64,000 nt of DNA from Chiloscyllium plagiosum (taxonomy: Eukaryota): contig NC_057718.1 in NCBI RefSeq assembly GCF_004010195.1, positions 7,622,787-7,686,786 on the forward strand, written 5' to 3'. This document shows positions 16,921-64,000 of this stretch, one piece after another. Position numbers and translations under genes: made by a program. How positions within the stretch are numbered: the first letter of the stretch is position 1; the number at the start of each line of letters is the position of its first letter. The notes below the pieces were generated by a model. The model did not search any database and was not told the origin of the DNA. It saw only the letters and a program-made list of their open reading frames with translations.

Positions 16921-17019
16921 GTAGGGTCAAGAGTATGGTGCTGGAAAAGCAGAGCAGGTCAGGCAGCATCAGAGGAGCAGGAGAGTCAACGTTTCGGGCA
17001 AAAGCCCTTCATCAGAAAT
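16921..17019 (-). mobile_element. Penelope-like terminal module (family P1) with hammerhead
   Basis: Module gtgctggaaaagc...caggcagcatc...cgtttcgggcaaaagcccttcatcag; flanked by gataca at 16915-16920 and 17020-17025. Confidence 0.75.
16985..17019 (-). ncRNA. Minimal type-I hammerhead ribozyme motif
   Basis: Minus strand CUGAUGA-A-GGGC-UUUU-GCCC-GAA-ACGU-U; catalytic core boxes intact. Confidence 0.65.
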
Positions 17020-17092
17020 GATACATTCGGGACATTTAAGCGACCTTTGGAAAGGCACATGGAAGATGAAGGGTAGGTTTGTCTGATCTTAG

Positions 17093-18102: not shown

Positions 18103-19335
18103 GTGAGAAAGGATTCTGAGGGATAGGATTTATGACCATCTGGAAGAGCATGGCTTGATTAAGTGCAGTCAATACGGCTTTGTGAGGAGCAGGTCATGCC
18201 TCACAAACTTTATCGAGTTCTTTGAGAATATGATTAGAAAAGTTGATGAGAGTCGAGCTGTGGATGTGGTGTATATGGACTTCAGCAAGGCATTTGATAA
18301 GGTTCTAGGAGTAAGTGAGGACTGCAGATGCTGGAGATCAGAGCTGAAAATGTGTTGCTGGAAAAACGCAGCAGGTCAGGCAGGGGAAGGAGCAGGGGAA
18401 TCGATGTTTCGGGCATGAGCCCTTCTTCAGGAATTTGATAAGGTTCCCCATGGTAGGCTCATTCAGAAGGTCAGGAGGAATGGGATACAGGGGAACTTAG
18501 CTGTCTGGATACAGAATTGGCTGGCCAACAGAAGACAGTGAGTAGTAGTAGAAGGAGAAAAATATTCTGCCTAGAAGTCAGTGGTGAGTGGTGTTCCACA
18601 GGGCTCTGCCCTTGGGCCTCTACTGTTTGTAATNNNNNNNNNNNNNNNNNNNNNNNNNNNNNNNNNNNNNNNNNNNACATAGATCCCTTAAAATAGCCAC
18701 CCAAGTGGACAGGGTTGTTAAGAAATCATATGGTGTTTTGGCTTTCATTAACAGGGGAATTGAGTTTAAGAGTTGAGATCTTGTTGCAGCTCTATAAAAC
18801 TTTGGTTAGACCGCACTTGGAATGCTGCGTCCAGTTCTGGTCGCCTTATTATAGGAAAGATGTGGATGCTTTGGAGAGGGTTCAGAGGTGGTTTACCAGG
18901 ATGCTGCCTGGACTGGAGGGCTTGTCTTATGAAGAGAGGTTGACTGAGCTCGGTCTTTTTTCATTGGACAAAAGGAGGAGGTGAGGGGACCTAATTGAGG
19001 TATACAAGATAGTGAGAGGCATAGATAGAGTCGATAGCCAGAGACTATTTCCCAGGGCAGAAATGGCTAACACGAGGGGTCATAGTTTTAATCTGGTTGG
19101 AGGAAAGTTTAGAGGGGATGTCAGAGGCGGGTTCTTTACACAGAGAGTTGTGAGAGCATGGAATGCGTTGCCAGCAGCAGTTGTGGAAGCAAGGTCATTG
19201 GGGACATTTAAGAGACTACTGGACAAGCATATGGTCACAGAAATTTGAGGGTGCATATATGAGGATCAGTGGTCGGCACAACATTGTCGGCTGAAGGGCC
19301 TGTTTTGTGCTGTACTGTTCGATGTTCTATGTTTC
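18103..19335 (+). pseudogene. CR1 LINE ORF2 (RT) fragment with 3' UTR; contains N-gap 18634-18676
   Basis: QYGFVRSRSCLTNFIEFFE...[34 protein letters not shown]; tail. Confidence 0.95.
18306..18432 (-). mobile_element. Penelope-like terminal module P1 with hammerhead variant
   Basis: Perfect 14-bp TSD atttgataaggttc 18292-18305 / 18433-18446; minus strand CUGAAGA-A-GGGC-UCAU-GCCC-GAAACAUC. Confidence 0.8.
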
Positions 19336-25738: not shown

Positions 25739-26638
25739 NNNNNNNNNNNNNNNNNNNNNNNNNNNNNNNNNNNNNNNNNNNNNNNNNNNNNNNNNNNNNN
25801 NNNNNNNNNNNNNNNNNNNNNNNNNNNNNNNNNNNNNNNNNNNNNNNNNNNNNNNNNNNNNNNNNNNNNNNNNNNNNNNNNNNNNNNNNNNNNNNNNNNN
25901 NNNNNNNNNNNNNNNNNNNNNNNNNNNNNNNNNNNNNNNNNNNNNNNNNNNNNNNNNNNNNNNNNNNNNNNNNNNNNNNNNNNNNNNNNNNNNNNNNNNN
26001 NNNNNNNNNNNNNNNNNNNNNNNNNNNNNNNNNNNNNNNNNNNNNNNNNNNNNNNNNNNNNNNNNNNNNNNNNNNNNNNNNNNNNNNNNNNNNNNNNNNN
26101 NNNNNNNNNNNNNNNNNNNNNNNNNNNNNNNNNNNNNNNNNNNNNNNNNNNNNNNNNNNNNNNNNNNNNNNNNNNNNNNNNNNNNNNNNNNNNNNNNNNN
26201 NNNNNNNNNNNNNNNNNNNNNNNNNNNNNNNNNNNNNNNNNNNNNNNNNNNNNNNNNNNNNNNNNNNNNNNNNNNNNNNNNNNNNNNNNNNNNNNNNNNN
26301 NNNNNNNNNNNNNNNNNNNNNNNNNNNNNNNNNNNNNNNNNNNNNNNNNNNNNNNNNNNNNNNNNNNNNNNNNNNNNNNNNNNNNNNNNNNNNNNNNNNN
26401 NNNNNNNNNNNNNNNNNNNNNNNNNNNNNNNNNNNNNNNNNNNNNNNNNNNNNNNNNNNNNNNNNNNNNNNNNNNNNNNNNNNNNNNNNNNNNNNNNNNN
26501 NNNNNNNNNNNNNNNNNNNNNNNNNNNNNNNNNNNNNNNNNNNNNNNNNNNNNNNNNNNNNNNNNNNNNNNNNNNNNNNNNNNNNNNNNNNNNNNNNNNN
26601 NNNNNNNNNNNNNNNNNNNNNNNNNNNNNNNNNNNNNN
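25739..26638. other. Assembly gap (900 N)
   Basis: Run of N; other gaps at 18634-18676 and 40627-40844. Confidence 1.
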
Positions 26639-29075: not shown

Positions 29076-29203
29076 GGTGAAAGTGAGGACTGCAGATGCT
29101 GGAGAGTCAATGAAGAGTGGTGCTGGAAAAGCACAGTCGGTCAGGCAGCAACCAAGGAGCAGGAGAGTCGACGGTTCAGGCATAAGCCCTTCATCAGGAA
29201 TGT
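29076..29203 (-). mobile_element. Penelope-like terminal module P1 (hammerhead with GAAA>GAAC change)
   Basis: aaagtgaggactgcagatgctgg...cataagcccttcatcaggaatg; flanks tctag(g/c)tgggtg on both sides. Confidence 0.78.
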
Positions 29204-37065: not shown

Positions 37066-37227
37066 AAGACGAAGCAATCTCATGGATATTACAGATGCTG
37101 GCAATCTGAAATCAGAACGGACTGTGCTGGAAATATTGTTGAATCGTACAGAGTGGAAGAGGCCCTTCAATCCATCGAGTCTGTGCCACTAAAAATATAC
37201 TACAACAATTGACACATTCCAATTGGG

Positions 37228-37344
37228 CGAAAGTGTGTACTGCAGATGCTAGAGATCAAAGTCAAGATTAGAGTGCTACTGGAAAAGCACAGTAGGTCAG
37301 GCAGCACCCAAATAGCAGGAGAATCGAGGTTTCGGGCAAAAGCC
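37228..37344 (-). mobile_element. Penelope-like terminal module P1
   Basis: Module ends in stem II gggcaaaagccc; TSD caca(t/c)tccaa(t/c)tggg 37213-37227 / 37345-37359. Confidence 0.78.
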
Positions 37345-37939
37345 CACACTCCAACTGGGGTCCCTCCAGGTTTTGAGGACCCCAATGTGCACTGTAGCTC
37401 CTCACAAGGTGACCTTGGAAATGCCTGATTTTTAGGTGGCAGGCCCCACCAGAGGGAGAATTTCAATATCTGGATGTGGTTTGGGTCATGTTCCAATTTT
37501 CTGACATTATAATTGAGCCGTCATCTCTCTTAAACATGGAATTGTTCTGACTTTTTCAATGACACTGAGAAATCATTGCTAGGCTCTTGTCATTTAGTGA
37601 AGCCAATCAAATTACCACAAATGATTACGAGCTCATTTGTTTTGTTTGGATGGTAAAGGCTAAAAACAAATTGACAGTTATTAAAGGTCAGACAAACTGT
37701 GTCTTGCTTACAACGAGTAGTCAAAAGGCCTGTGCCCTATTTTAACACTTCTATATGTTACAACCAATGCAAACAAATTCTGGGTGTGATTCATTGAGTC
37801 GGTGCAGTGTCAGTGTTCAAACCTTGCACTCCATCTTCAAGACTAAAGGACCAGATGGTGTTATTAGAGGAAATCTCACAAATGAAAGGGAAAACAGAAT
37901 AGGTAGACATTTACTCAAACACTCCTCCCCCAGCATCAG

Positions 37940-38310: not shown

Positions 38311-39424
38311 CTCATGGGCCCATTCAAAGAAGAAAATGAGATGAACATTCCATTTATTCATTTATCCCTCAGCAAGCTGCTGCTTTTGGGATCTTGCTGT
38401 GTGCAAATTGATACATTTTCAAAACGGCAGCAGCAATTGCACGTGCTGTTGATGGCTGCAGAATGCACTGGAATCTCAGTGCACTGGAGAAAAGCATTCC
38501 ATAAGGGCAAGTCTTTCTTCGTCGATCTGTAGAAAGGGCTGACCTGCACACAATGGGCTGAAGGGCCTTTTGATGCACTCTGCGTTGAACCAATATTAGG
38601 TGCTGTTCAGGAAGAGATGGTGCCTGATGAAATAGATTAAATGGAAGGGAATCCCAAAGCTATTGAGGTCACCATGACAACATAAGGACTGGCAGCTCAG
38701 CCTTTGATGGAGAGGCTATATAGAGACAGCAACAGCAGCTAATCATTCCTAGTCACAAGACGGGAGTAAAAAAGAAACAAGAATTTAAATTGTACTGCTG
38801 ACTGGATGAAAACAAAAGCCTCATCTATATCATCAGCATGAATTGACATGGGTCACTCATTCATCACTGCACTTAATCAGCATTTTATGCAGCTGTGTGC
38901 TGATCTGAGTCTCTCTCCTTTTTGTCTCTCGAAACAAAATGTTGTGGAAAATCTAAATGAAGGTTTGGTTCGAAGTAATGGTTTCAAGTCTGAGGAGTGG
39001 AAAATGTGACCGTTGTTTCCACTGAGCCAGCTCAGCGCAGACTTCACGTTGCATCTGCACAGGAAGTGGTAACGTGCCCAGCTGTGACACAGGAAGCAGT
39101 GAATCAAGATTTCTGAGTGGATTACTGAAGGGATGGAACCCTCCACTACCCCACGCCACCCCCCCCCCCCGCCGCCTCCTCCTCCTCCCTCCGCCCGGCC
39201 GTGTGCCTCGTGTGCCTTCAGTGACCACACGCCTGATCTAACACGCCCCAAGCATTAGCATGGCTGCCGATTGCCGCACAGGAAGACCCCACATGCAGAA
39301 ACAGGTAGAGGGAAGGAAGTTGAGAGTACGCAGCAGAAGGTTTGGGCACTGGGGCAAGTCCTCTCTCCTCTGCTTAGGGATCATGAATTGCTCCTTGTCA
39401 GTAGGTGGGGCCTAGCTGTATTAT

Positions 39425-39610
39425 GGAGGAGAAAGTGAGGTCTGCAGATGCTGGAGATCAGAGATGGAAATGTGTTGCTGGAAAAGCGCAGCAGGTCAGG
39501 CAGCATCTAGGGAACAGGAGAATCGACGTTTCGGGCATGAGCCCTTCTTCAGGAATGAGGAAAGTTGGTCCAGCAGGCTAAGATAAAAGGTAGGGAGGAG
39601 GGACTTGGGG
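39425..39610 (-). mobile_element. Penelope-like terminal module P1, long variant (left arm of composite)
   Basis: Largely the reverse complement of 40888-41021. Confidence 0.82.
39521..39557 (-). ncRNA. Minimal type-I hammerhead ribozyme motif
   Basis: Minus strand cauuc-CUGAAGA-A-GGGC-UCAU-GCCC-GAA-ACGU-C-ga. Confidence 0.7.
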
Positions 39611-40562
39611 CTGTCTGGATACAGAATTGGCTGGCCGAAAGAAGACAGCGAGTGGTAGTGGATAGAAAGCATTCCGCCTGGAAGTCAGTGACCAACGTTG
39701 TTCTTGGACCTCTGGTCTTTGTAGTTTTTATAAATGACTTGGACGAAGAAGCGGAAGGGTTGGGTTAGTAAGTTTGCCGATGACACAAAATTCGATGGTG
39801 TTGCAGTTAGTATCGAGGGCTATCGCAAAGTACAACAAAACATTGGCAGGATGCAGAGTGGGGCTGAGAAGTGGCAGAAAGAGTTCAACCTGGATAAATG
39901 CAAAGTGATTCATTTTGGAAGTGCAAATTTGAATGCAGGTTTAAGACAGGATTCTTCGCAGTGTAGAGGAACAGCGGGATCTTGGCGTCCGTGTACATAG
40001 ATCCCTCAAAATTGTCACCTAAGTTGATAGGATTGTTAAGAAGGTGTTTTGGCTTTCATTAACAGGGGGATTGAGTTTTAAGAGCCGTGAGGTTTTGCTG
40101 CAGGTGTATAAAACCCTGGTCAACTTGGAATATTGTGTCCAGTTCTGGTCACCTTATTATAGGAAGGATGTGGATGCTTTGGAGAGGGTGTAGAGGAGAT
40201 TTACCAGGATGCTGCCTGGACTGGAGTGCATGTCTTATGAAGAGAGGTTGCGTGAGCTAGGGCTTTTCACACTGGAGAGAAGGAGGAAGAGAGGTGACTT
40301 GATAGAGGTGTACAATGTAATGAGAGGCATAGATGGAGTACATAGCCAGAGACTTTTCCCCAGGACAGAAATGGCTGTCACGAGGGGTCATATTTTTAAG
40401 GTGATTGGAGGAAGGTATAAAGGAGATGCCAGGGGTAAGTTCTTTTCACAGAGAGTGATGGATGCATGCCAGCAATGGTGGTAGAGTTGGAGATATTAGG
40501 GACATTCAAGCAACTGCTGGACAAGCACGTGGACAGCAGTAAATTGAGGGTTGTGTAGCTTA
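39611..40562 (+). pseudogene. CR1 LINE ORF2 (RT) fragment inside the composite insertion
   Basis: VWIQNWLAERRQRVVV; VSKFADDTK; MLPGLECMSYEERLRELGLFTLE. Confidence 0.92.
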
Positions 40563-40844
40563 GGCGGAAGTAGGTACTGCAGAGGCTGAAGATTAGAATC
40601 AAGATTAGAGTAGTGCTGGAAAAGCANNNNNNNNNNNNNNNNNNNNNNNNNNNNNNNNNNNNNNNNNNNNNNNNNNNNNNNNNNNNNNNNNNNNNNNNNN
40701 NNNNNNNNNNNNNNNNNNNNNNNNNNNNNNNNNNNNNNNNNNNNNNNNNNNNNNNNNNNNNNNNNNNNNNNNNNNNNNNNNNNNNNNNNNNNNNNNNNNN
40801 NNNNNNNNNNNNNNNNNNNNNNNNNNNNNNNNNNNNNNNNNNNN

Positions 40845-41021
40845 TCACCCTCACCTTGACCTCTTTCCACCTATCACATTTCCGACGCCCCTCCCCCAGT
40901 CCCTCCTCCCTATCTTTTATCTTAGCCTGCTGGACAAACTTTCCTCATTCCTGAAGAAGGGCTCATGCCCGAAACGTCGATTCTCCTGTTCCCTAGATGC
41001 TGCCTGACTTGCTGCGCTTTT
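40845..41021 (+). mobile_element. Penelope-like terminal module P1 (right arm of composite)
   Basis: Pyrimidine-rich segment, then hammerhead, then gatgctgcctgacttgctgcgctttt. Confidence 0.82.
40946..40982 (+). ncRNA. Minimal type-I hammerhead ribozyme motif
   Basis: CUGAAGA 40951-40957, stem II GGGC-UCAU-GCCC, GAA-ACGU-C 40971-40978 (GUC cleavage triplet). Confidence 0.72.
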
Positions 41022-41345
41022 CCTAGCTGTATTATCACTGGACTGCTGGGGCCTAGCTGTATTATCACTGGACTGCTGTTCGAGAGAGCCAGGACCGTTC
41101 TGAGGACCCAGGTTTGAATCCCACCAAGGCAGATGTGAAGTTTGGATTCAAGACAAAGTCTGGAATCAAGAGTCTAATAATGACCATGAATCTGTTGTTG
41201 TGAAGATCTATCTGGTTCATTAATCCCTCTTACGGAAGGAAAGGCTCTGCGTGTGACTCCAGGCCCACAACAATATGGTTGACTCAATGAGGGATGGGCA
41301 ATAATGCTGGTCGAGCCAGTGGCACCCTCATCCTGTGAATGAAGT
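41022..41345 (+). mobile_element. SINE family B (head begins ~39405, split by the composite insertion)
   Basis: cctagctgtattatcactggactg...ggtttgaatcccacc...gggatgggcaataatgctgg tail. Confidence 0.75.
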
Positions 41346-52345: not shown

Positions 52346-52472
52346 CCGGCGAAAGTGAGGACTGCAGATGCTGGAGATCAGAGTCGAGAGTGTGGTGCTG
52401 GAAAAGCACAGCAGGTCAGACAGCATCCGAGGAGCAGGAGAATCAACATTTCGGGCAAAAGCCTTTCTATCT
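52346..52472 (-). mobile_element. Penelope-like terminal module P1
   Basis: Perfect 16-bp TSD tgacttcagtctccct 52330-52345 / 52473-52488. Confidence 0.82.
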
Positions 52473-54480: not shown

Positions 54481-54591
54481 CAAAGAAATACCAGAGGACC
54501 TGCAGTTCTCATGTAATATACAATGCACAACGAGGTCTCACAGATATATGGAGAACGAGGACACGATCATAAGAATGTAGTAAGAAAGCTC

Positions 54592-55092
54592 TTGTGAAAC
54601 TTGAAAGGGTTCAGAAAAGATTTACAAGGATGTTGTCAGGGTTGGAGGGTTTGAGCTATAGGGAGAGGCGGAACAGGCTGGAGCTGGTTTCCCTGGAGTG
54701 TCGGAGGCTGAGGGGTGACCTTACAGAGGTTTACAAAATCATGAGGGGCATGGATAAGATAAATAGATGTCTTTTCCCTGGGGTAGGGGAGTCCAGAACT
54801 AGAGGGCATAGATTTAGGATGAGAGGGGAAAGATATAAAAGGGACCGAAGGGGCAATCTTTTTCACGCAGAGGGTGGTACGTGTATGGAATGAGCTGCCA
54901 GAGGGAGTCGTGGAGGCTGGTACAATTGCAACATTTAAAAGGCATCTGGATAGGATATGAATAGGAAAGTTTGGAGGGCTGTGGGCCGGGTGCTGGCAGG
55001 TGGGACTAGATTGGGTTGGGATATCTGGTTGGCATGGACGGGTTGGACCGAAGGGTCTGTTTCCATGCTGTACATCTCTATGACTCTATGTG
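54592..55092 (+). mobile_element. CR1 LINE 3' fragment
   Basis: KLERVQKRFTRMLSGLEGLSYRER; ctctatgactctatg tail. Confidence 0.94.
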
Positions 55093-59284: not shown

Positions 59285-59575
59285 GGTCCTTGGTTGGACA
59301 GCTGGTTTGTGGTGTACGGTTCAACATCAAAAGGGTTGTGTGTTCAATTCCTGCACTAGTTGAGATTAGGAGAAAGTGAGGATTGCAGTTGCTGGAGATC
59401 AGAGTCGAGAGTGTGGTGCTGGAAAAGCACAGCAGGTCAGGAAGCGTCGGAGGAGCAGGAAAATCAATGTTTCGGGCATAAGTGCTTCGTCAGAAACTGG
59501 TTGGGATTAGCACCGTCTCAACCTTTCCCTCGCCTGAGGCATGGTAGCCCTCAGGTTAAACCATCACCAGTCGTA
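59285..59575 (+). mobile_element. SINE family C split by a P1 module
   Basis: ttcaattcctgcact... resumes tctcaacctttccctcgcctgagg...ctcaggttaaacc. Confidence 0.65.
59370..59495 (-). mobile_element. Penelope-like terminal module P1 (degenerate hammerhead)
   Basis: TSD act(a/g)gttg(a/g)gattag 59355-59369 / 59496-59510. Confidence 0.8.
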
Positions 59576-62097: not shown

Positions 62098-63048
62098 ATC
62101 ATAGAATCCCTATAGTGTGAAAACAGGCCATTCATCCCACCTAGTCCACACTAATCTTCCAAAGAGAATCCCATCCAGACCAGTTCCCATATCCTGTCCC
62201 TGTAAGCATTACATTTTCCATGGCTAACACACCTAACCTGCACATCCCTGAACACTGTGGGCAATTTAGCGTGGCAAATCTGCCTAACCTGCATATCACT
62301 GAACACGCAGACACTGGGTGTATGTGCAAACTCCACACAGACAGTCACCCAAGGCTGGCGTTGAACCTGGGCCCCTGGCACTGTGAGGTAGCAGTGGACA
62401 GTGTGGTGCTGGAATAGCAGAGCAGGTCAGGCAGCATTCGAGGAGCAGGAAAATTGACGTTTCAGGCATAAGCCTTTCATTAGACATCAAGTCTCCTGCT
62501 CCTCAGATGCTGCCTGACCTGCTGTGCTTTTCCAGTACTAAACTCTTGACTCTGACTCTCCAATCTTCAATTTCTCCTCGACTGTGAGGCAGCAGTTGAA
62601 CAGGCTGGGGCTGTTTTCCCTGGAATGTCAGAGGCTGAGGAGTGATCTTATAGAGGTTTATAAAATCATGAAGGGCATGGATAGGATAAAGAGACAAGGT
62701 CTTTTCCCTGGGGTAGGGGAGCCCAGAACTAGATGGCATAGGCTTAGGGTGAGAGGGGAGAGATATAAAGGATACCTAAGGGGCAATGTTTTCACGCAGA
62801 GGGTGATGTGTGCGTGTGTGTGCGCGCAATGAGCTGCCAGAGGAAGTAGTGGAGGCTGGTACAATTGCAGCATTTAAAAGGCATCTGGATGGGGATATGA
62901 ATAGGAAGGGTTTGGAGGGATATGGGCCAAATGCTGGCAAACAGGACTAGTTGGGTTGGAATATCGGGTCGGCATGGATGAGTTGGATTGAAGGGTCTGT
63001 TTCCATGCTGTACAGCTCAATGCTGACCACTGAGCCACCGTACTGCCC
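62098..63048 (-). mobile_element. HE1-type SINE split by an inverted P1 pair (62396-62580) and a CR1 fragment (62597-63020)
   Basis: SINE body ends ggcactgtgaggtagcagt; head tgctgaccactgagccaccgtactgccc resumes at 63021. Confidence 0.82.
62597..63020 (+). mobile_element. CR1 LINE 3' fragment
   Basis: LNRLGLFSLECQRLRSDLIEVYKIMKGMD. Confidence 0.92.
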
Positions 63049-63768
63049 TAGACAGGACATGATACTGGATCTCCTGGGTCAGAGGTAGGGACAAGAGGTG
63101 CCACCCACCCTCCCCTCTACCTTGCTAAAGCTCATTGGTTGTAGCTGTACTATGTGACTCTTTCGGGGGTGATGTCAGTTGTATGTGGAAATATGTGAGT
63201 GAGGTATCGGTGGAAAGTGAGTGTTGTGTGGAGGGGGAGGGTGCTGGTGGGGAGAGGCTATGTGATCTTTCAGGTGGTCTGCCATTCTTTGTCTCCCCAC
63301 CACCACCCACACTGTCATTCGGCAAATATCAACTCTCTTTGAGAGCAAGGGTCAGGACTGGCGAACAGAAACACAGGCAGCCTTCAGCCCACTGAATGAG
63401 CTCACACAAGCACCGAGCATCTGGGGACAGCTCACATGAATGCCATCATCATTTCCTTCTGAATGCAGACGTTTTTTTTTCTTAAAAGGGACCGTGACAG
63501 ACACATGAAAGCCTTGCAATACTGTGCAGCTATTTTTGATATAATTGTGGCTGCACTCAAGCCATCTCTGAGAGGAAGATGTACGTTTCTTTAATGCTTT
63601 TTACCGTCTGCAAAAAGGCTTTACACAGTGGAGTGCTTTCCAATTGTGTGTGTGTGTCTCACTGTTGTCAGGAGTGGTGACAGGCTAGTGGTATTATCGT
63701 TGAATTTTATTCCAGACACCCAACTAATGTTCTGGGGACCCAGCTTTGAATCCCCCCCCCCCCCCACC

Positions 63769-64000
63769 AAGGGCATAGGTCTAGGGTGAGAGGAGAAAGA
63801 TTTAAAAGCGCCCTAAGGGGCAACTGTTTCACGCAGAGGGTGGTGCCTGTATGGAATGAGCTGCCAGAGGAAGTGGTGGAGGCTGGTACAATGACAACAT
63901 TTAAAAGGCATCAGGATGGGTACATGAATAGGAAGGGTTTAGAGGGATATGGGCCAAATGCTGGCAAATGGGATTAGATTAGGTTGGGATATCTGGTCAG
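63769..64000 (+). mobile_element. CR1 LINE 3' fragment, truncated by window end (follows a family B SINE head at ~63672-63755)
   Basis: GERFKSALRGNCFTQRVVPVWNELPEEVVEAG. Confidence 0.92.

What the first reader, a model, noticed from the sequence alone, without database searches (positions are those of the whole stretch)
40946..40982. Minimal hammerhead ribozymes carried by dispersed Penelope-like modules
Seen: CUGAAGA-A-[GGGC-UCAU-GCCC]-GAA-ACGU-C here, an identical motif on the minus strand at 39521-39557, and CUGAUGA-A-[GGGC-UUUU-GCCC]-GAA-ACGU-U at 16985-17019. Mutated copies occur at ~18401, ~29168, ~59465 and ~62455. Established: Penelope-like retroelements carry minimal type-I hammerheads whose helix III is reduced to a palindrome and which are proposed to cleave as dimers. 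Inference: this genome is seeded with potentially self-cleaving RNA motifs at several per 64 kb, hidden inside what looks like ordinary repeat DNA.
Basis: partly seen in the sequence, partly recalled or inferred. Interest (0 to 1): 0.8.

Follow-up and report, generated by a model that had tools for sequence, protein, structure and literature searches.

The report
Penelope-element minimal hammerhead motifs, confirmed
The motif is a real minimal hammerhead ribozyme signature carried at the tail end of Penelope-like jumping genes that litter this animal genome; it is a known kind of element, here at unusually high copy number, and whether it actually cuts RNA remains untested.

Summary
Observation confirmed. 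CTGAWGA-A-GGGC-N4-GCCC-GAAACGTH occurs at 40951-40978(+), 39525-39552(-) and 16988-17015(-), against 0 matches in 100 shuffles.

Interpretation supported. The motif has the four hallmarks of the published minimal hammerhead (min-HHR) of Penelope-like elements (PLEs). It sits in a 95-135-bp 3'-terminal module. In the own 3.56-Gb genome that module follows a PLE endonuclease region on the same strand in 27 of 29 sampled loci. Insertions show PLE hallmarks: target-site duplications, head-to-head inverted pairs, and a ~37-nt tail on one arm only.

The genome holds 92,148 exact motif matches. The window has no PLE coding sequence; its copies are truncated, non-coding ends.

Across subfamilies the constrained hammerhead positions vary less than the downstream flank (5/30 against 33/63 columns, p=0.0014). 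No compensatory change was found in helix II, no Rfam hammerhead model matches, and RNA reads show no ends at the predicted cut site.

Catalysis is untested; solo copies are probably inert. This is a new member of a known kind.

The parts
40947..40986 (+). Focal min-HHR. Helix I 5' strand ATTC (40947-40950); 28-nt core CTGAAGA-A-GGGC-TCAT-GCCC-GAA-ACGT-C (40951-40978); helix I 3' strand GATT (40979-40982). Predicted cut between 40978 and 40979.
   Evidence: Helix II is the only stem in the centroid fold. Helix I has 3 of 4 possible pairs.
40845..41021 (+). Right arm: 5'-truncated PLE 3' end (about 100 nt of 3'UTR plus the hammerhead module) with the short 3' end (...GCGCTTTTCC). Its upstream limit is hidden by the N run 40627-40844.
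   Evidence: The same 3'UTR sequence follows the PLE endonuclease in L050.
39425..39610 (-). Left arm: inverted PLE 3' end copy, 97% complementary to the right arm over 131 nt. Hammerhead at 39525-39552. It carries the long ~37-55-nt 3' tail that ends at 39425.
39411..39424 (.). Target-site duplication CCTAGCTGTATTAT, left copy.
41022..41035 (.). Target-site duplication CCTAGCTGTATTAT, right copy. The 27-nt stretch 41022-41048 is repeated again at 41052-41078.
39611..40565 (+). CR1/L2-like LINE reverse-transcriptase and C-terminal fragment lying between the two PLE arms. It is not part of the PLE.
   Evidence: sequence; tblastn to the L018 LINE, E 1.7e-30 and 4e-42. The L018 RT has RVT_1 at 2.4e-27 and its best PDB match is R2.
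16936..17021 (-). Module copy of another subfamily. It has an intact hammerhead (16988-17015; CTGATGA, TTTT loop, GTT site) and interrupts a LINE C-terminal coding region.
18307..18434 (-). Module with long tail. Hammerhead at 18403-18430 has one change (ACGT to ACAT) that breaks the helix III palindrome.
29076..29202 (-). Module with long tail. Hammerhead at 29170-29197 is mutated (GCCT; GAAA to GAAC).
37226..37345 (-). Module 5'-truncated inside the hammerhead: the CUGANGA box is missing.
52348..52468 (-). Module 5'-truncated within the core box and mutated (GAAATGTT).
59368..59496 (-). Module with long tail. Hammerhead at 59466-59493 is decayed (CTGACGA, GCAC, ACAT).
62402..62535 (.). Head-to-head inverted pair: minus arm 62402-62478 (mutated hammerhead) and plus arm 62484-62535 (starts just after the hammerhead).

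Best explanation
The motif is the minimal type-I hammerhead (min-HHR) of an endonuclease-bearing, Neptune-like Penelope-like retroelement (PLE) family.

Anatomy. The hammerhead occupies the first ~38 nt of a 95-135-bp module at the 3' end of the element. Its layout is AUUC / CUGA(A/U)GA / A / GGGC-N4-GCCC / GAA / ACGU / C / GA(U/A)U. About 60 nt downstream lies an AC-rich stem-loop region where insertions end. An optional ~37-nt tail follows.

How the copies arose (inferred). The element's reverse transcriptase starts inside the RNA at that region. It copies back through the hammerhead and usually stops or switches template. This leaves tiny insertions flanked by target-site duplications. Often both DNA strands are primed, which gives head-to-head pairs with the tail on one arm only.

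The window. It holds only such dead, non-coding ends: 3 with an intact hammerhead signature and 6 decayed or cut.

How the motif works (inferred from published min-HHRs, not shown here). A single copy cannot form helix III and is inert. Two same-strand copies in one transcript, as in tandem arrays such as locus L081, could pair their ACGU palindromes into a 4-bp helix III. That would form a double hammerhead that cleaves slowly after GUC.

My estimates: about 0.9 that this is a PLE min-HHR, and about 0.3 that it cleaves to a biologically meaningful extent in vivo.
For: Motif.
- Exact at three window sites, 0 of 100 shuffles.
- All four non-descriptor hallmarks listed in the main text of PMC4209133 are present. 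They can be read directly.

Carrier.
- L011 encodes a CX4CX2C linker plus GIY-YIG. PF01541 scores 32 bits, over its cut-off.
- A search of the own genome with that linker gave 150 of 150 scored hits at E<=3.4e-27, from 48,665 first-look candidates.
- 27 of 29 fetched loci have a same-strand module 182-777 nt downstream. 14 of those 27 carry the exact motif.
- RVT_1 followed by GIY-YIG on one strand is seen in L022 and L043. RVT_1 alone is seen in L031, and GIY-YIG alone in L037 and L024.
- The focal copy's upstream 100 nt is the 3'UTR that follows the endonuclease in L050.

Integration hallmarks (passages of PMC8557442; passages of PMC11167929).
- One TSD of 12-17 bp flanks a single copy or a whole inverted pair: L002, L003, L006, L007, L010 and window 39411/41022.
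- In 5 of 5 pairs examined, only one arm has the long tail.
- 3' ends cluster at +73..+98 and at +124..+128 (43 of 119 hits).
- 13 of 13 close pairs in a 100-site listing are head-to-head.
- Reads from thousands of copies show the same three boundaries and head-to-head joints.

Constraint.
- Among 7 natural copies of different subfamilies, 5 of 30 constrained hammerhead columns vary, against 4 of 6 free columns (N7, bulge, loop 2) and 33 of 63 downstream columns. Fisher p=0.0014 and 0.024.
- In reads, the only motif positions with >=10% variants are N7 and two loop-2 positions.

Tandem substrate.
- L081 has three same-strand motifs 224 and 320 nt apart.
Against: - No Rfam hammerhead model matches: not at gathering score, not at E<=10 over 8 kb, not on 71 nt.
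- Helix II gives no covariation. C-G has 92,148 copies; T-(G/A) has 1,807, of which 3 of the 100 listed are T-A; C-A has 988. The estimated ~54 doubles against ~19 expected is within sampling noise. The stems never vary at master level, which says nothing for or against the fold.
- Helix I is only 3 of 4 pairs in the focal copies.
- The 40-nt motif folds no better than shuffles (z -0.33).
- The nearest-neighbour energy of the double-hammerhead pairing is well above the predicted dimer optimum: -9.5 against -24.1 kcal/mol for the focal copy, and -13.3 against -18.5 for L003. The optimum uses a competing quasi-palindrome, GAAACGUCGAUUC.
- RNA raw reads (X19: 2,073 laid, about 2% of the run read) show no pile-up of ends at 39524/39525 and smooth depth across the site. 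A polyA single-cell library is a poor detector of such ends.
- Only 5 of 119 copies start within 5 nt of the cut site. Cleaved RNA is therefore not the usual template.
- Published work: low in vitro activity of min-HHRs (PMC4209133). In the Anolis element the hammerhead is dispensable for insertion in vitro and no RNA-seq ends were seen at its site (PMC11167929, passages).
- The downstream blocks GATGCTGCCTGA and TTCCAGCA are as conserved as the core.
Confidence: 0.88

Rival explanations
1. Hammerhead-derived but not working as a ribozyme. The conserved 38-nt fold, together with the downstream stem-loop, serves mainly as a structural or protein-binding element of the PLE template RNA. It might mark the template's 5' end, recruit the RT, or act as a promoter-proximal element. 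Cleavage would be vestigial.
For: - 28 of 119 module copies begin at -4..-2, exactly the first nucleotide of helix I. No cluster lies at the cut site. Reads show the same boundary at 39555/39556.
- The whole module is kept, not just the core.
- There are no RNA ends at the site.
- The hammerhead is dispensable for insertion in vitro in Anolis (PMC11167929).
- Craig et al. suggest that hammerheads may simply parasitise PLEs (PMC8557442).
Against: - The positions conserved across subfamilies are those that hammerhead catalysis needs. The positions that vary are the ones catalysis leaves free.
- Hammerheads of fungal, plant and protist PLEs do cleave as monomers (PMC4209133).
- C3/G8 mutants abolish a measurable activity of the Anolis hammerhead.
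Confidence: 0.35
2. The module is the 3' tail of a CR1/L2-type LINE, or of a SINE that borrows that tail, and the hammerhead-like boxes are incidental.
For: - The window is full of LINE 3' fragments (more than 20 tblastn hits).
- A LINE RT fragment lies between the two focal arms.
- In L018 a module starts about 100 nt after a LINE stop codon.
- No PLE coding sequence is present in the window.
Against: - 27 of 29 PLE endonuclease loci carry the module just downstream on the same strand.
- Modules sit at varying places relative to LINEs: inside an RT (L016), interrupting a C-terminus (16936-17021), and in either orientation.
- There is no poly(A) or microsatellite tail.
- The one-sided 30-40-bp tail and outward-facing inverted 3' ends are reported as not seen in LINE integration (PMC8557442).
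Confidence: 0.03
3. The copies are non-LTR retrozymes: non-autonomous tandem repeats that are transcribed, self-cleave at both hammerheads, circularise, and are copied by PLE machinery.
For: - L081 has three same-strand motifs spaced 224 and 320 nt apart, with 100% identical repeat units.
- Retrozymes are proposed to be PLE derivatives (abstract and Results of the preprint 10.64898/2026.07.22.740005; passages of PMC7229834).
Against: - No window copy is tandem. They are solo copies or inverted pairs.
- Among 100 listed sites of one subfamily only one tandem cluster was seen.
- The L081 units include PLE 3'UTR sequence and look like the partial tandems typical of PLE insertion.
- No circular RNA evidence was available.
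Confidence: 0.08

Closest known systems
Minimal hammerheads (min-HHR) of metazoan Penelope-like elements (Cervera & De la Pena 2014, PMC4209133)
   Same: - Type-I order with CUGANGA and GAAA boxes.
- Unpaired nucleotide between A9 and G10.1.
- G10.1-C11.1 pair.
- No loop 3, and palindromic 15.2-16.2 (ACGU).
- Short helix I.
- Sits in the PLE terminal repeat, mostly as dispersed solo motifs or opposite-strand pairs 100-700 bp apart.
   Different: - Helix II is 4 bp with a 4-nt loop. The paper reports 7-8 bp in Schistosoma and 6 bp in D. virilis.
- Sequence variation within the genome is low, confined to loop 2 and N7. The paper stresses extreme variability.
- Copy number is far higher: 92,148 exact matches, against about 4,000 in coelacanth and 9,000 in Xenopus in that paper.
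Poseidon element PAc of Anolis carolinensis (PMC11167929)
   Same: - The hammerhead lies just upstream of the internal RT start region.
- Two adjacent start sites explain the optional tail.
- Both DNA strands are cut and extended.
- The start site lies in an AC-rich stem-loop.
- No RNA-seq ends were seen at the hammerhead site.
   Different: - In PAc the ORF starts inside the hammerhead. Here the frame opening at the loop-2 ATG closes after 25 codons, and the module lies after the endonuclease stop codon.
- The linker carries a CX4CX2C motif, the feature that PMC8557442 assigns to the Neptune and Nematis clades rather than to Penelope/Poseidon.
Non-LTR retrozymes of animals (PMC7229834; preprint 10.64898/2026.07.22.740005)
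   Same: - Type-I hammerheads.
- Proposed dependence on PLEs.
- Tandem units of a few hundred bp exist at some loci (L081).
   Different: Retrozymes carry canonical hammerheads with helix III and loop-loop contacts, occur as tandem arrays, and make circular RNAs. The window copies are solo or inverted, minimal, and only 95-135 bp long.
Rfam hammerhead families (type I, II, III, HH9, HH10)
   Same: The catalytic core boxes.
   Different: No covariance-model match at any threshold tried. I take this to reflect the missing helix III hairpin; that explanation is an inference and was not tested.

Membership tests
PLE minimal hammerhead (min-HHR) | Core boxes C3-U4-G5-A6-N7-G8-A9 and G12-A13-A14, A15.1-U16.1, and a cleavage-site H17 that is not G. 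| tested here: met
   CTGA(A/T)GA ... GAA-ACGT-(C/T) at three window sites, with 0 matches in 100 shuffles.
PLE minimal hammerhead (min-HHR) | Extra unpaired nucleotide between A9 and G10.1. | tested here: met
   An A follows CTGANGA in all intact copies. The feature is listed in PMC4209133.
PLE minimal hammerhead (min-HHR) | Helix II closed by G10.1-C11.1. | tested here: met
   GGGC/GCCC, 4 bp, is the stem present in every predicted fold.
PLE minimal hammerhead (min-HHR) | No loop 3; palindromic 15.2-16.2, so that two copies can form helix III. | tested here: met
   ACGT lies directly between GAA and C17. The 4-bp intermolecular helix is possible but energetically weak.
PLE minimal hammerhead (min-HHR) | Helix I of about 4-5 bp formed by the flanks. 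| tested here: inconclusive
   ATTC/GATT gives 3 of 4 pairs in the focal copies. ATTC/GAAT gives 4 of 4 in the CTGT-loop subfamily, which has 11,888 exact 36-mers. In L003 part of ATTC overlaps the target-site duplication.
PLE minimal hammerhead (min-HHR) | Compensatory changes that keep the stems. | tested here: inconclusive
   The 2x2 count for pair 10.4-11.4 shows only decay-level singles and no compensated family. The stems never vary between subfamilies.
PLE minimal hammerhead (min-HHR) | Self-cleavage after H17, as a dimer. | not testable with these tools
   The only indirect data are RNA reads, which show no ends at the site, in a library type unsuited to the question.
Penelope-like elements, EN+ (Neptune-like) | One ORF with RT followed by a C-terminal GIY-YIG endonuclease. 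| tested here: met
   Met in the genome, not in the window. RVT_1 then PF01541 on one strand in L022 and L043. PF01541 scores 32 bits in L011. Individual degenerate copies score just under the Pfam cut-offs. Many RT stretches are withheld as N.
Penelope-like elements, EN+ (Neptune-like) | CX2-5CxxC zinc-finger-like linker before the endonuclease. | tested here: met
   A C-x4-C-x2-C stretch precedes the GIY-YIG in L011. It is conserved at 80-96% identity in 150 of 150 scored hits. The feature is described in PMC8557442.
Penelope-like elements, EN+ (Neptune-like) | Hammerhead module physically linked to the ORF. | tested here: met
   27 of 29 loci have a same-strand module 182-777 nt after the linker match. 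The misses are L020 and L024.
Penelope-like elements, EN+ (Neptune-like) | Heavy 5' truncation, an inverted 5'-truncated partner, and a 30-40-bp tail at one end only. | tested here: met
   First-look candidate numbers fall from 48,665 for the endonuclease linker to 7,657 for the N-terminus. These are lower bounds, not copy counts.
Penelope-like elements, EN+ (Neptune-like) | Direct pseudo-LTRs (partial tandems). | tested here: inconclusive
   Only 2 of 30 N-terminal loci have a same-strand module upstream, and both are partial. 8 of 30 have an inverted one. One clear partial tandem was seen, L081.
Rfam hammerhead families | Match to a curated covariance model. | tested here: not met
   No hammerhead hit at gathering score or at E<=10.
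Non-LTR retrozyme | Tandem repeats of 150-450 bp, each with a type-I hammerhead, expressed as circular RNA. | tested here: not met
   Not met for the window copies, which are solo or inverted. Tandem units exist at L081. Circular RNA could not be tested.
LINE or SINE 3' tail | Module at a fixed place at the 3' end of a LINE ORF, with a LINE-type tail. | tested here: not met
   Placement relative to LINE pieces is variable. There is no A-rich or microsatellite end.

The most novel reading that the evidence does not exclude
The roughly 10^5 copies of ~95-135 bp that begin exactly at the first nucleotide of helix I, and that contain nothing but the hammerhead plus the RT-entry stem-loop, are not random truncations. 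They would be retro-copies of a discrete short RNA.

Two versions are possible. One is a leader RNA transcribed from the PLE 3'UTR promoter, starting at the TCATTCC initiator-like site. The other is a self-sustaining minimal non-autonomous parasite of the PLE machinery.

[quoted passage not shown] That would make this one of the smallest retroelements known and would give the PLE hammerhead a non-catalytic job.
Probability: 0.2. Interest if true: 0.6.

Novelty: new member of a known kind. Interest (0 to 1): 0.3.

Why it matters
PLE hammerheads have been known since 2014, and their function is still unsettled. The papers read here state this.

This genome offers an unusually large and young population: 92,148 intact signatures in 3.56 Gb, about 26 per Mb. 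For comparison, up to 120,000 canonical hammerhead retrozymes are reported in the axolotl (PMC7229834), whose genome is 28.21 Gbp (preprint 10.64898/2026.07.22.740005).

The copies have clean target-site duplications, defined 5' and 3' ends, and natural tandem loci. That makes the genome a good place to ask two questions. Does the motif cut RNA in vivo? Why do so many copies start exactly at helix I?

For genome annotation, it shows that a very common short 'unknown repeat' is the 3' end of a Penelope-like element.

Tried and rejected
- Rfam at three settings gave no hammerhead hit.
- Pfam on 58 window ORFs of >=110 aa gave nothing. The window has no PLE protein pieces apart from three 12-15-aa chance-level hits next to modules.
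- A PF01541 search of the own genome scored only 150 of 14,403 candidates and returned one hit. That hit (L011) became the useful seed.
- I looked for full elements between same-strand motif pairs 1-4 kb apart. The reverse transcriptases found there were LINE-type: the L018 RT has RVT_1 at 2.4e-27 and its best PDB match is R2 at 1.8e-5. This briefly suggested a LINE-tail reading, which rejected.
- 'Long open frames' reported were artefacts of withheld N stretches. I did not pursue the withheld parts, so I cannot say whether any copy is intact.
- PDB sequence searches with PLE RT and endonuclease pieces found nothing relevant.
- The ESM Atlas gave only a lead: nearest clusters carry PF26215, and some carry PF01541.
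- Earlier scan notes: nothing on this genome or sequence.
- The look-up of sequencing runs: no RNA holder listed. Two raw-read RNA runs of the same species label were laid, and X20 gave 0 reads.
- The idea that the module holds the ORF start, as in Anolis, was rejected: the loop-2 ATG frame stops after 25 codons.
- The idea that 5' ends sit at the cleavage site was rejected.
- Papers: no library paper holding 'hammerhead', 'Penelope' and 'shark' bears on this; 4 papers hold all three terms. For 'hammerhead ribozyme' + 'Penelope' + 'Chondrichthyes', 3 papers hold all terms, and one samples a single chondrichthyan for tandem retrozymes. I do not claim what organism the window comes from.
- Supplements of PMC4209133 and of the bioRxiv preprint were not read. 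They may list fish or cartilaginous-fish min-HHRs.

Full report
**1. The observation**

The window reads CTGAAGA-A-GGGC-TCAT-GCCC-GAA-ACGT-C at 40951-40978 on the plus strand. The identical 28-mer is at 39525-39552 on the minus strand. The CTGATGA / TTTT-loop / GTT variant is at 16988-17015, also on the minus strand. The degenerate pattern matched 3 times in the window and never in 100 dinucleotide-preserving shuffles.

The 'mutated copies' are real and lie at 18403-18430, 29170-29197, 59466-59493 and 62456-62478, all on the minus strand. Two more truncated hammerhead copies are at 37326-37345 and 52445-52468. Five module fragments without the hammerhead were also found.

**2. What carries it**

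All copies share a module that runs from about 4 nt before CUGA to 73-98 nt after it (short end) or 124-128 nt after it (long end).

The window lies in a 3.56-Gb assembly. There the pattern has 46,037 forward and 46,111 reverse exact matches, and 0 in the reversed control.

Ten random exact-motif loci are alike only from -3/-4 to +64..+125 (mostly +77..+95), apart from inverted partners and one subfamily with 39-80 nt more.

The insertions are delimited by target-site duplications:
- L003 is an 89-bp single copy with a 12-bp duplication.
- L006, L007 and L010 are head-to-head pairs, each flanked by one duplication of 13-17 bp.
- L002 is a chimera inside one 14-bp duplication: 145 nt of unrelated, LINE-like sequence joined to the module exactly at its 5' edge.

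The two focal copies are the arms of such a pair. A 14-bp duplication, CCTAGCTGTATTAT, sits at 39411-39424 and 41022-41035. The arms are 97% complementary over 131 nt. In 5 of 5 pairs examined, one arm ends short and the other carries a ~37-nt or longer tail.

**3. A false lead**

Reverse transcriptases near some motifs turned out to be LINE-type. The L018 RT has RVT_1 at 2.4e-27 and its best PDB match is R2. Its translation carries a stop codon followed by its own 3'UTR. The 955-bp stretch between the focal arms is also such a LINE fragment. This raised the rival reading that the module is a LINE or SINE tail.

**4. The carrier is a Penelope-like element**

The one PF01541 hit in the genome (L011, 32 bits) reads as a C-x4-C-x2-C linker followed by a GIY-YIG motif.

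Searching the genome with that linker gave 150 significant hits of 150 scored, out of 48,665 first-look candidates. In 27 of the 29 fetched loci a module lies on the same strand 182-777 nt downstream. The misses were L020 and L024. 14 of those 27 modules keep the exact motif.

RVT_1 precedes GIY-YIG on the same strand in L022 and L043. L031 shows RVT_1, and L037 and L024 show GIY-YIG. These degenerate copies score at or just under the Pfam cut-offs.

The 100 nt upstream of the focal hammerhead (40845-40946) match the 3'UTR that follows the endonuclease in L050.

RT plus a C-terminal GIY-YIG defines EN+ PLEs, and the extra cysteine linker is the feature of the Neptune and Nematis clades (PMC8557442, passages). 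[quoted passage not shown] All three are seen here.

The Anolis study (PMC11167929, passages) explains these features. The enzyme cuts and extends both DNA strands. It starts reverse transcription at two adjacent internal sites in an AC-rich stem-loop shortly downstream of the hammerhead.

Here the short and long ends flank an AC-rich stretch (CCAGCAACACA). The tail can pair with an internal AGAUGCUG block.

The window itself has no PLE coding sequence. Many RT stretches in the genome loci read N (withheld). I did not pursue them, so I cannot say whether intact copies exist.

**5. Is it a hammerhead?**

By the published criteria for the PLE minimal hammerhead (PMC4209133, main text), it has:
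- the two core boxes;
- an H17 of C or U;
- the extra nucleotide between A9 and G10.1;
- the G10.1-C11.1 pair;
- no loop 3;
- the palindromic 15.2-16.2.

Helix I is weak: ATTC/GATT gives 3 of 4 pairs. It is perfect (ATTC/GAAT) in a subfamily with 11,888 exact 36-mers.

Evidence of constraint:
- Among 7 natural copies of different subfamilies, 5 of 30 constrained columns vary. By comparison, 4 of 6 free columns vary (N7, the bulge, loop 2), and 33 of 63 downstream columns. Fisher p=0.0014 and 0.024.
- In reads pooled from thousands of copies, the only motif positions with >=10% variants are N7 and two loop positions.

However, two downstream blocks are equally conserved.

Evidence that is neutral or against:
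- No compensatory family exists for the helix II pair that I tested.
- No Rfam model matches.
- The motif is not unusually stable.
- The double-hammerhead pairing is 5-15 kcal/mol above the predicted dimer optimum.

**6. Does it cut?**

This is not shown.

Polyadenylated single-cell RNA reads of the same species label (X19) put 2,073 reads on the module. They run in both directions, and 95% continue into unrelated flanks. Depth is smooth across the site and no ends pile up at 39524/39525. That library is a poor detector of ribozyme ends.

Only 5 of 119 genomic copies start within 5 nt of the cut site.

Published min-HHRs cleave weakly, and only as dimers. The Anolis hammerhead is not needed for insertion in vitro.

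The arrangement needed for a dimer, same-strand neighbours, is absent from the window but does exist in the genome. L081 has three motifs 224 and 320 nt apart in 100% identical units.

**7. An unexplained regularity**

28 of 119 module copies begin at -4..-2, the first nucleotide of helix I. Pooled reads show the same boundary at 39555/39556. Template switches (L002) and inverted junctions sit at that point too.

A transcription start at the initiator-like TCATTCC is possible; the initiator consensus is my recollection and was not tested. An RT stop at the folded hammerhead is also possible. Neither is shown. Upstream same-strand modules are rare at ORF 5' ends (2 of 30, both partial), which does not favour a simple pLTR-promoter model.

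**8. Verdict**

This is a new instance of a known kind, notable for its copy number and clean anatomy. Catalysis remains open.

Noticed in passing
window 39411-41035: One 14-bp target-site duplication encloses four parts: a minus-strand PLE arm with long tail; a 955-bp LINE RT fragment; a second minus-strand module end (40570-40626, running into the N stretch 40627-40844); and the plus-strand arm. This is either a PLE insertion that captured LINE RNA by template switching, or later insertions into the junction of a pair.
   Followed up: partly
L002:1356-1624 (oriented as): A single insertion inside a 14-bp duplication joins 145 nt of LINE-like C-terminal coding sequence to the module exactly at CTGA. 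It looks like a template switch at the 5' end of the module RNA.
   Followed up: partly
L081 (G000:C1:16162650-16163650, minus strand): Three same-strand hammerhead modules lie 224 and 320 nt apart, with 100% identical 207-nt repeat units that extend about 78 nt beyond the usual tail. This is a young partial tandem or retrozyme-like array.
   Followed up: partly
window 40975-40987, and the same stretch in other copies: GAAACGUCGAUUC is a quasi-palindrome. In cofolding, two copies prefer to pair through it (-24.1 kcal/mol) rather than form the double hammerhead (-9.5 kcal/mol).
   Followed up: partly
window 39425-39510 (minus strand): The optional 3' tail (CAGCAUCUGCAG) is complementary to an internal block (AGAUGCUG...) and encloses the AC-rich CCAGCAACACA hairpin. 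This is a candidate RT-entry structure.
   Followed up: no
window 41022-41078: The 27 nt next to the insertion (CCTAGCTGTATTATCACTGGACTGCTG) occur twice in tandem, 30 nt apart. So the flank itself is duplicated beyond the 14-bp target-site duplication.
   Followed up: no
window, whole (e.g. 2438-2893, 18152-19233, 54585-55006, 63768-63974): More than 20 fragments of one CR1/L2-like LINE family are present, mostly 3' ends. PLE modules often sit inside or next to them, for example 16936-17021 interrupting a LINE C-terminus.
   Followed up: partly
loci L019-L047: The distance from the endonuclease linker to the module ranges from 182 to 777 nt and clusters near 250-300 and near 500-527. In L050 the short form shows an internal deletion right after the YIGETG motif. 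This suggests a large endonuclease-deleted subfamily.
   Followed up: partly
window 18634-18676, 25739-26638, 40627-40844, and many genome loci: Runs of N lie next to PLE and LINE sequence. In genome loci they cover most of the PLE RT and create false long open frames in search tables.
   Followed up: no
runs X2-X14: Runs labelled as seven other organisms (B-H) hold 30-80% of the sampled 31-mers of the 186-nt copy. Organism B shows the same copy boundaries. The module is therefore shared, nearly unchanged, with related species.
   Followed up: partly
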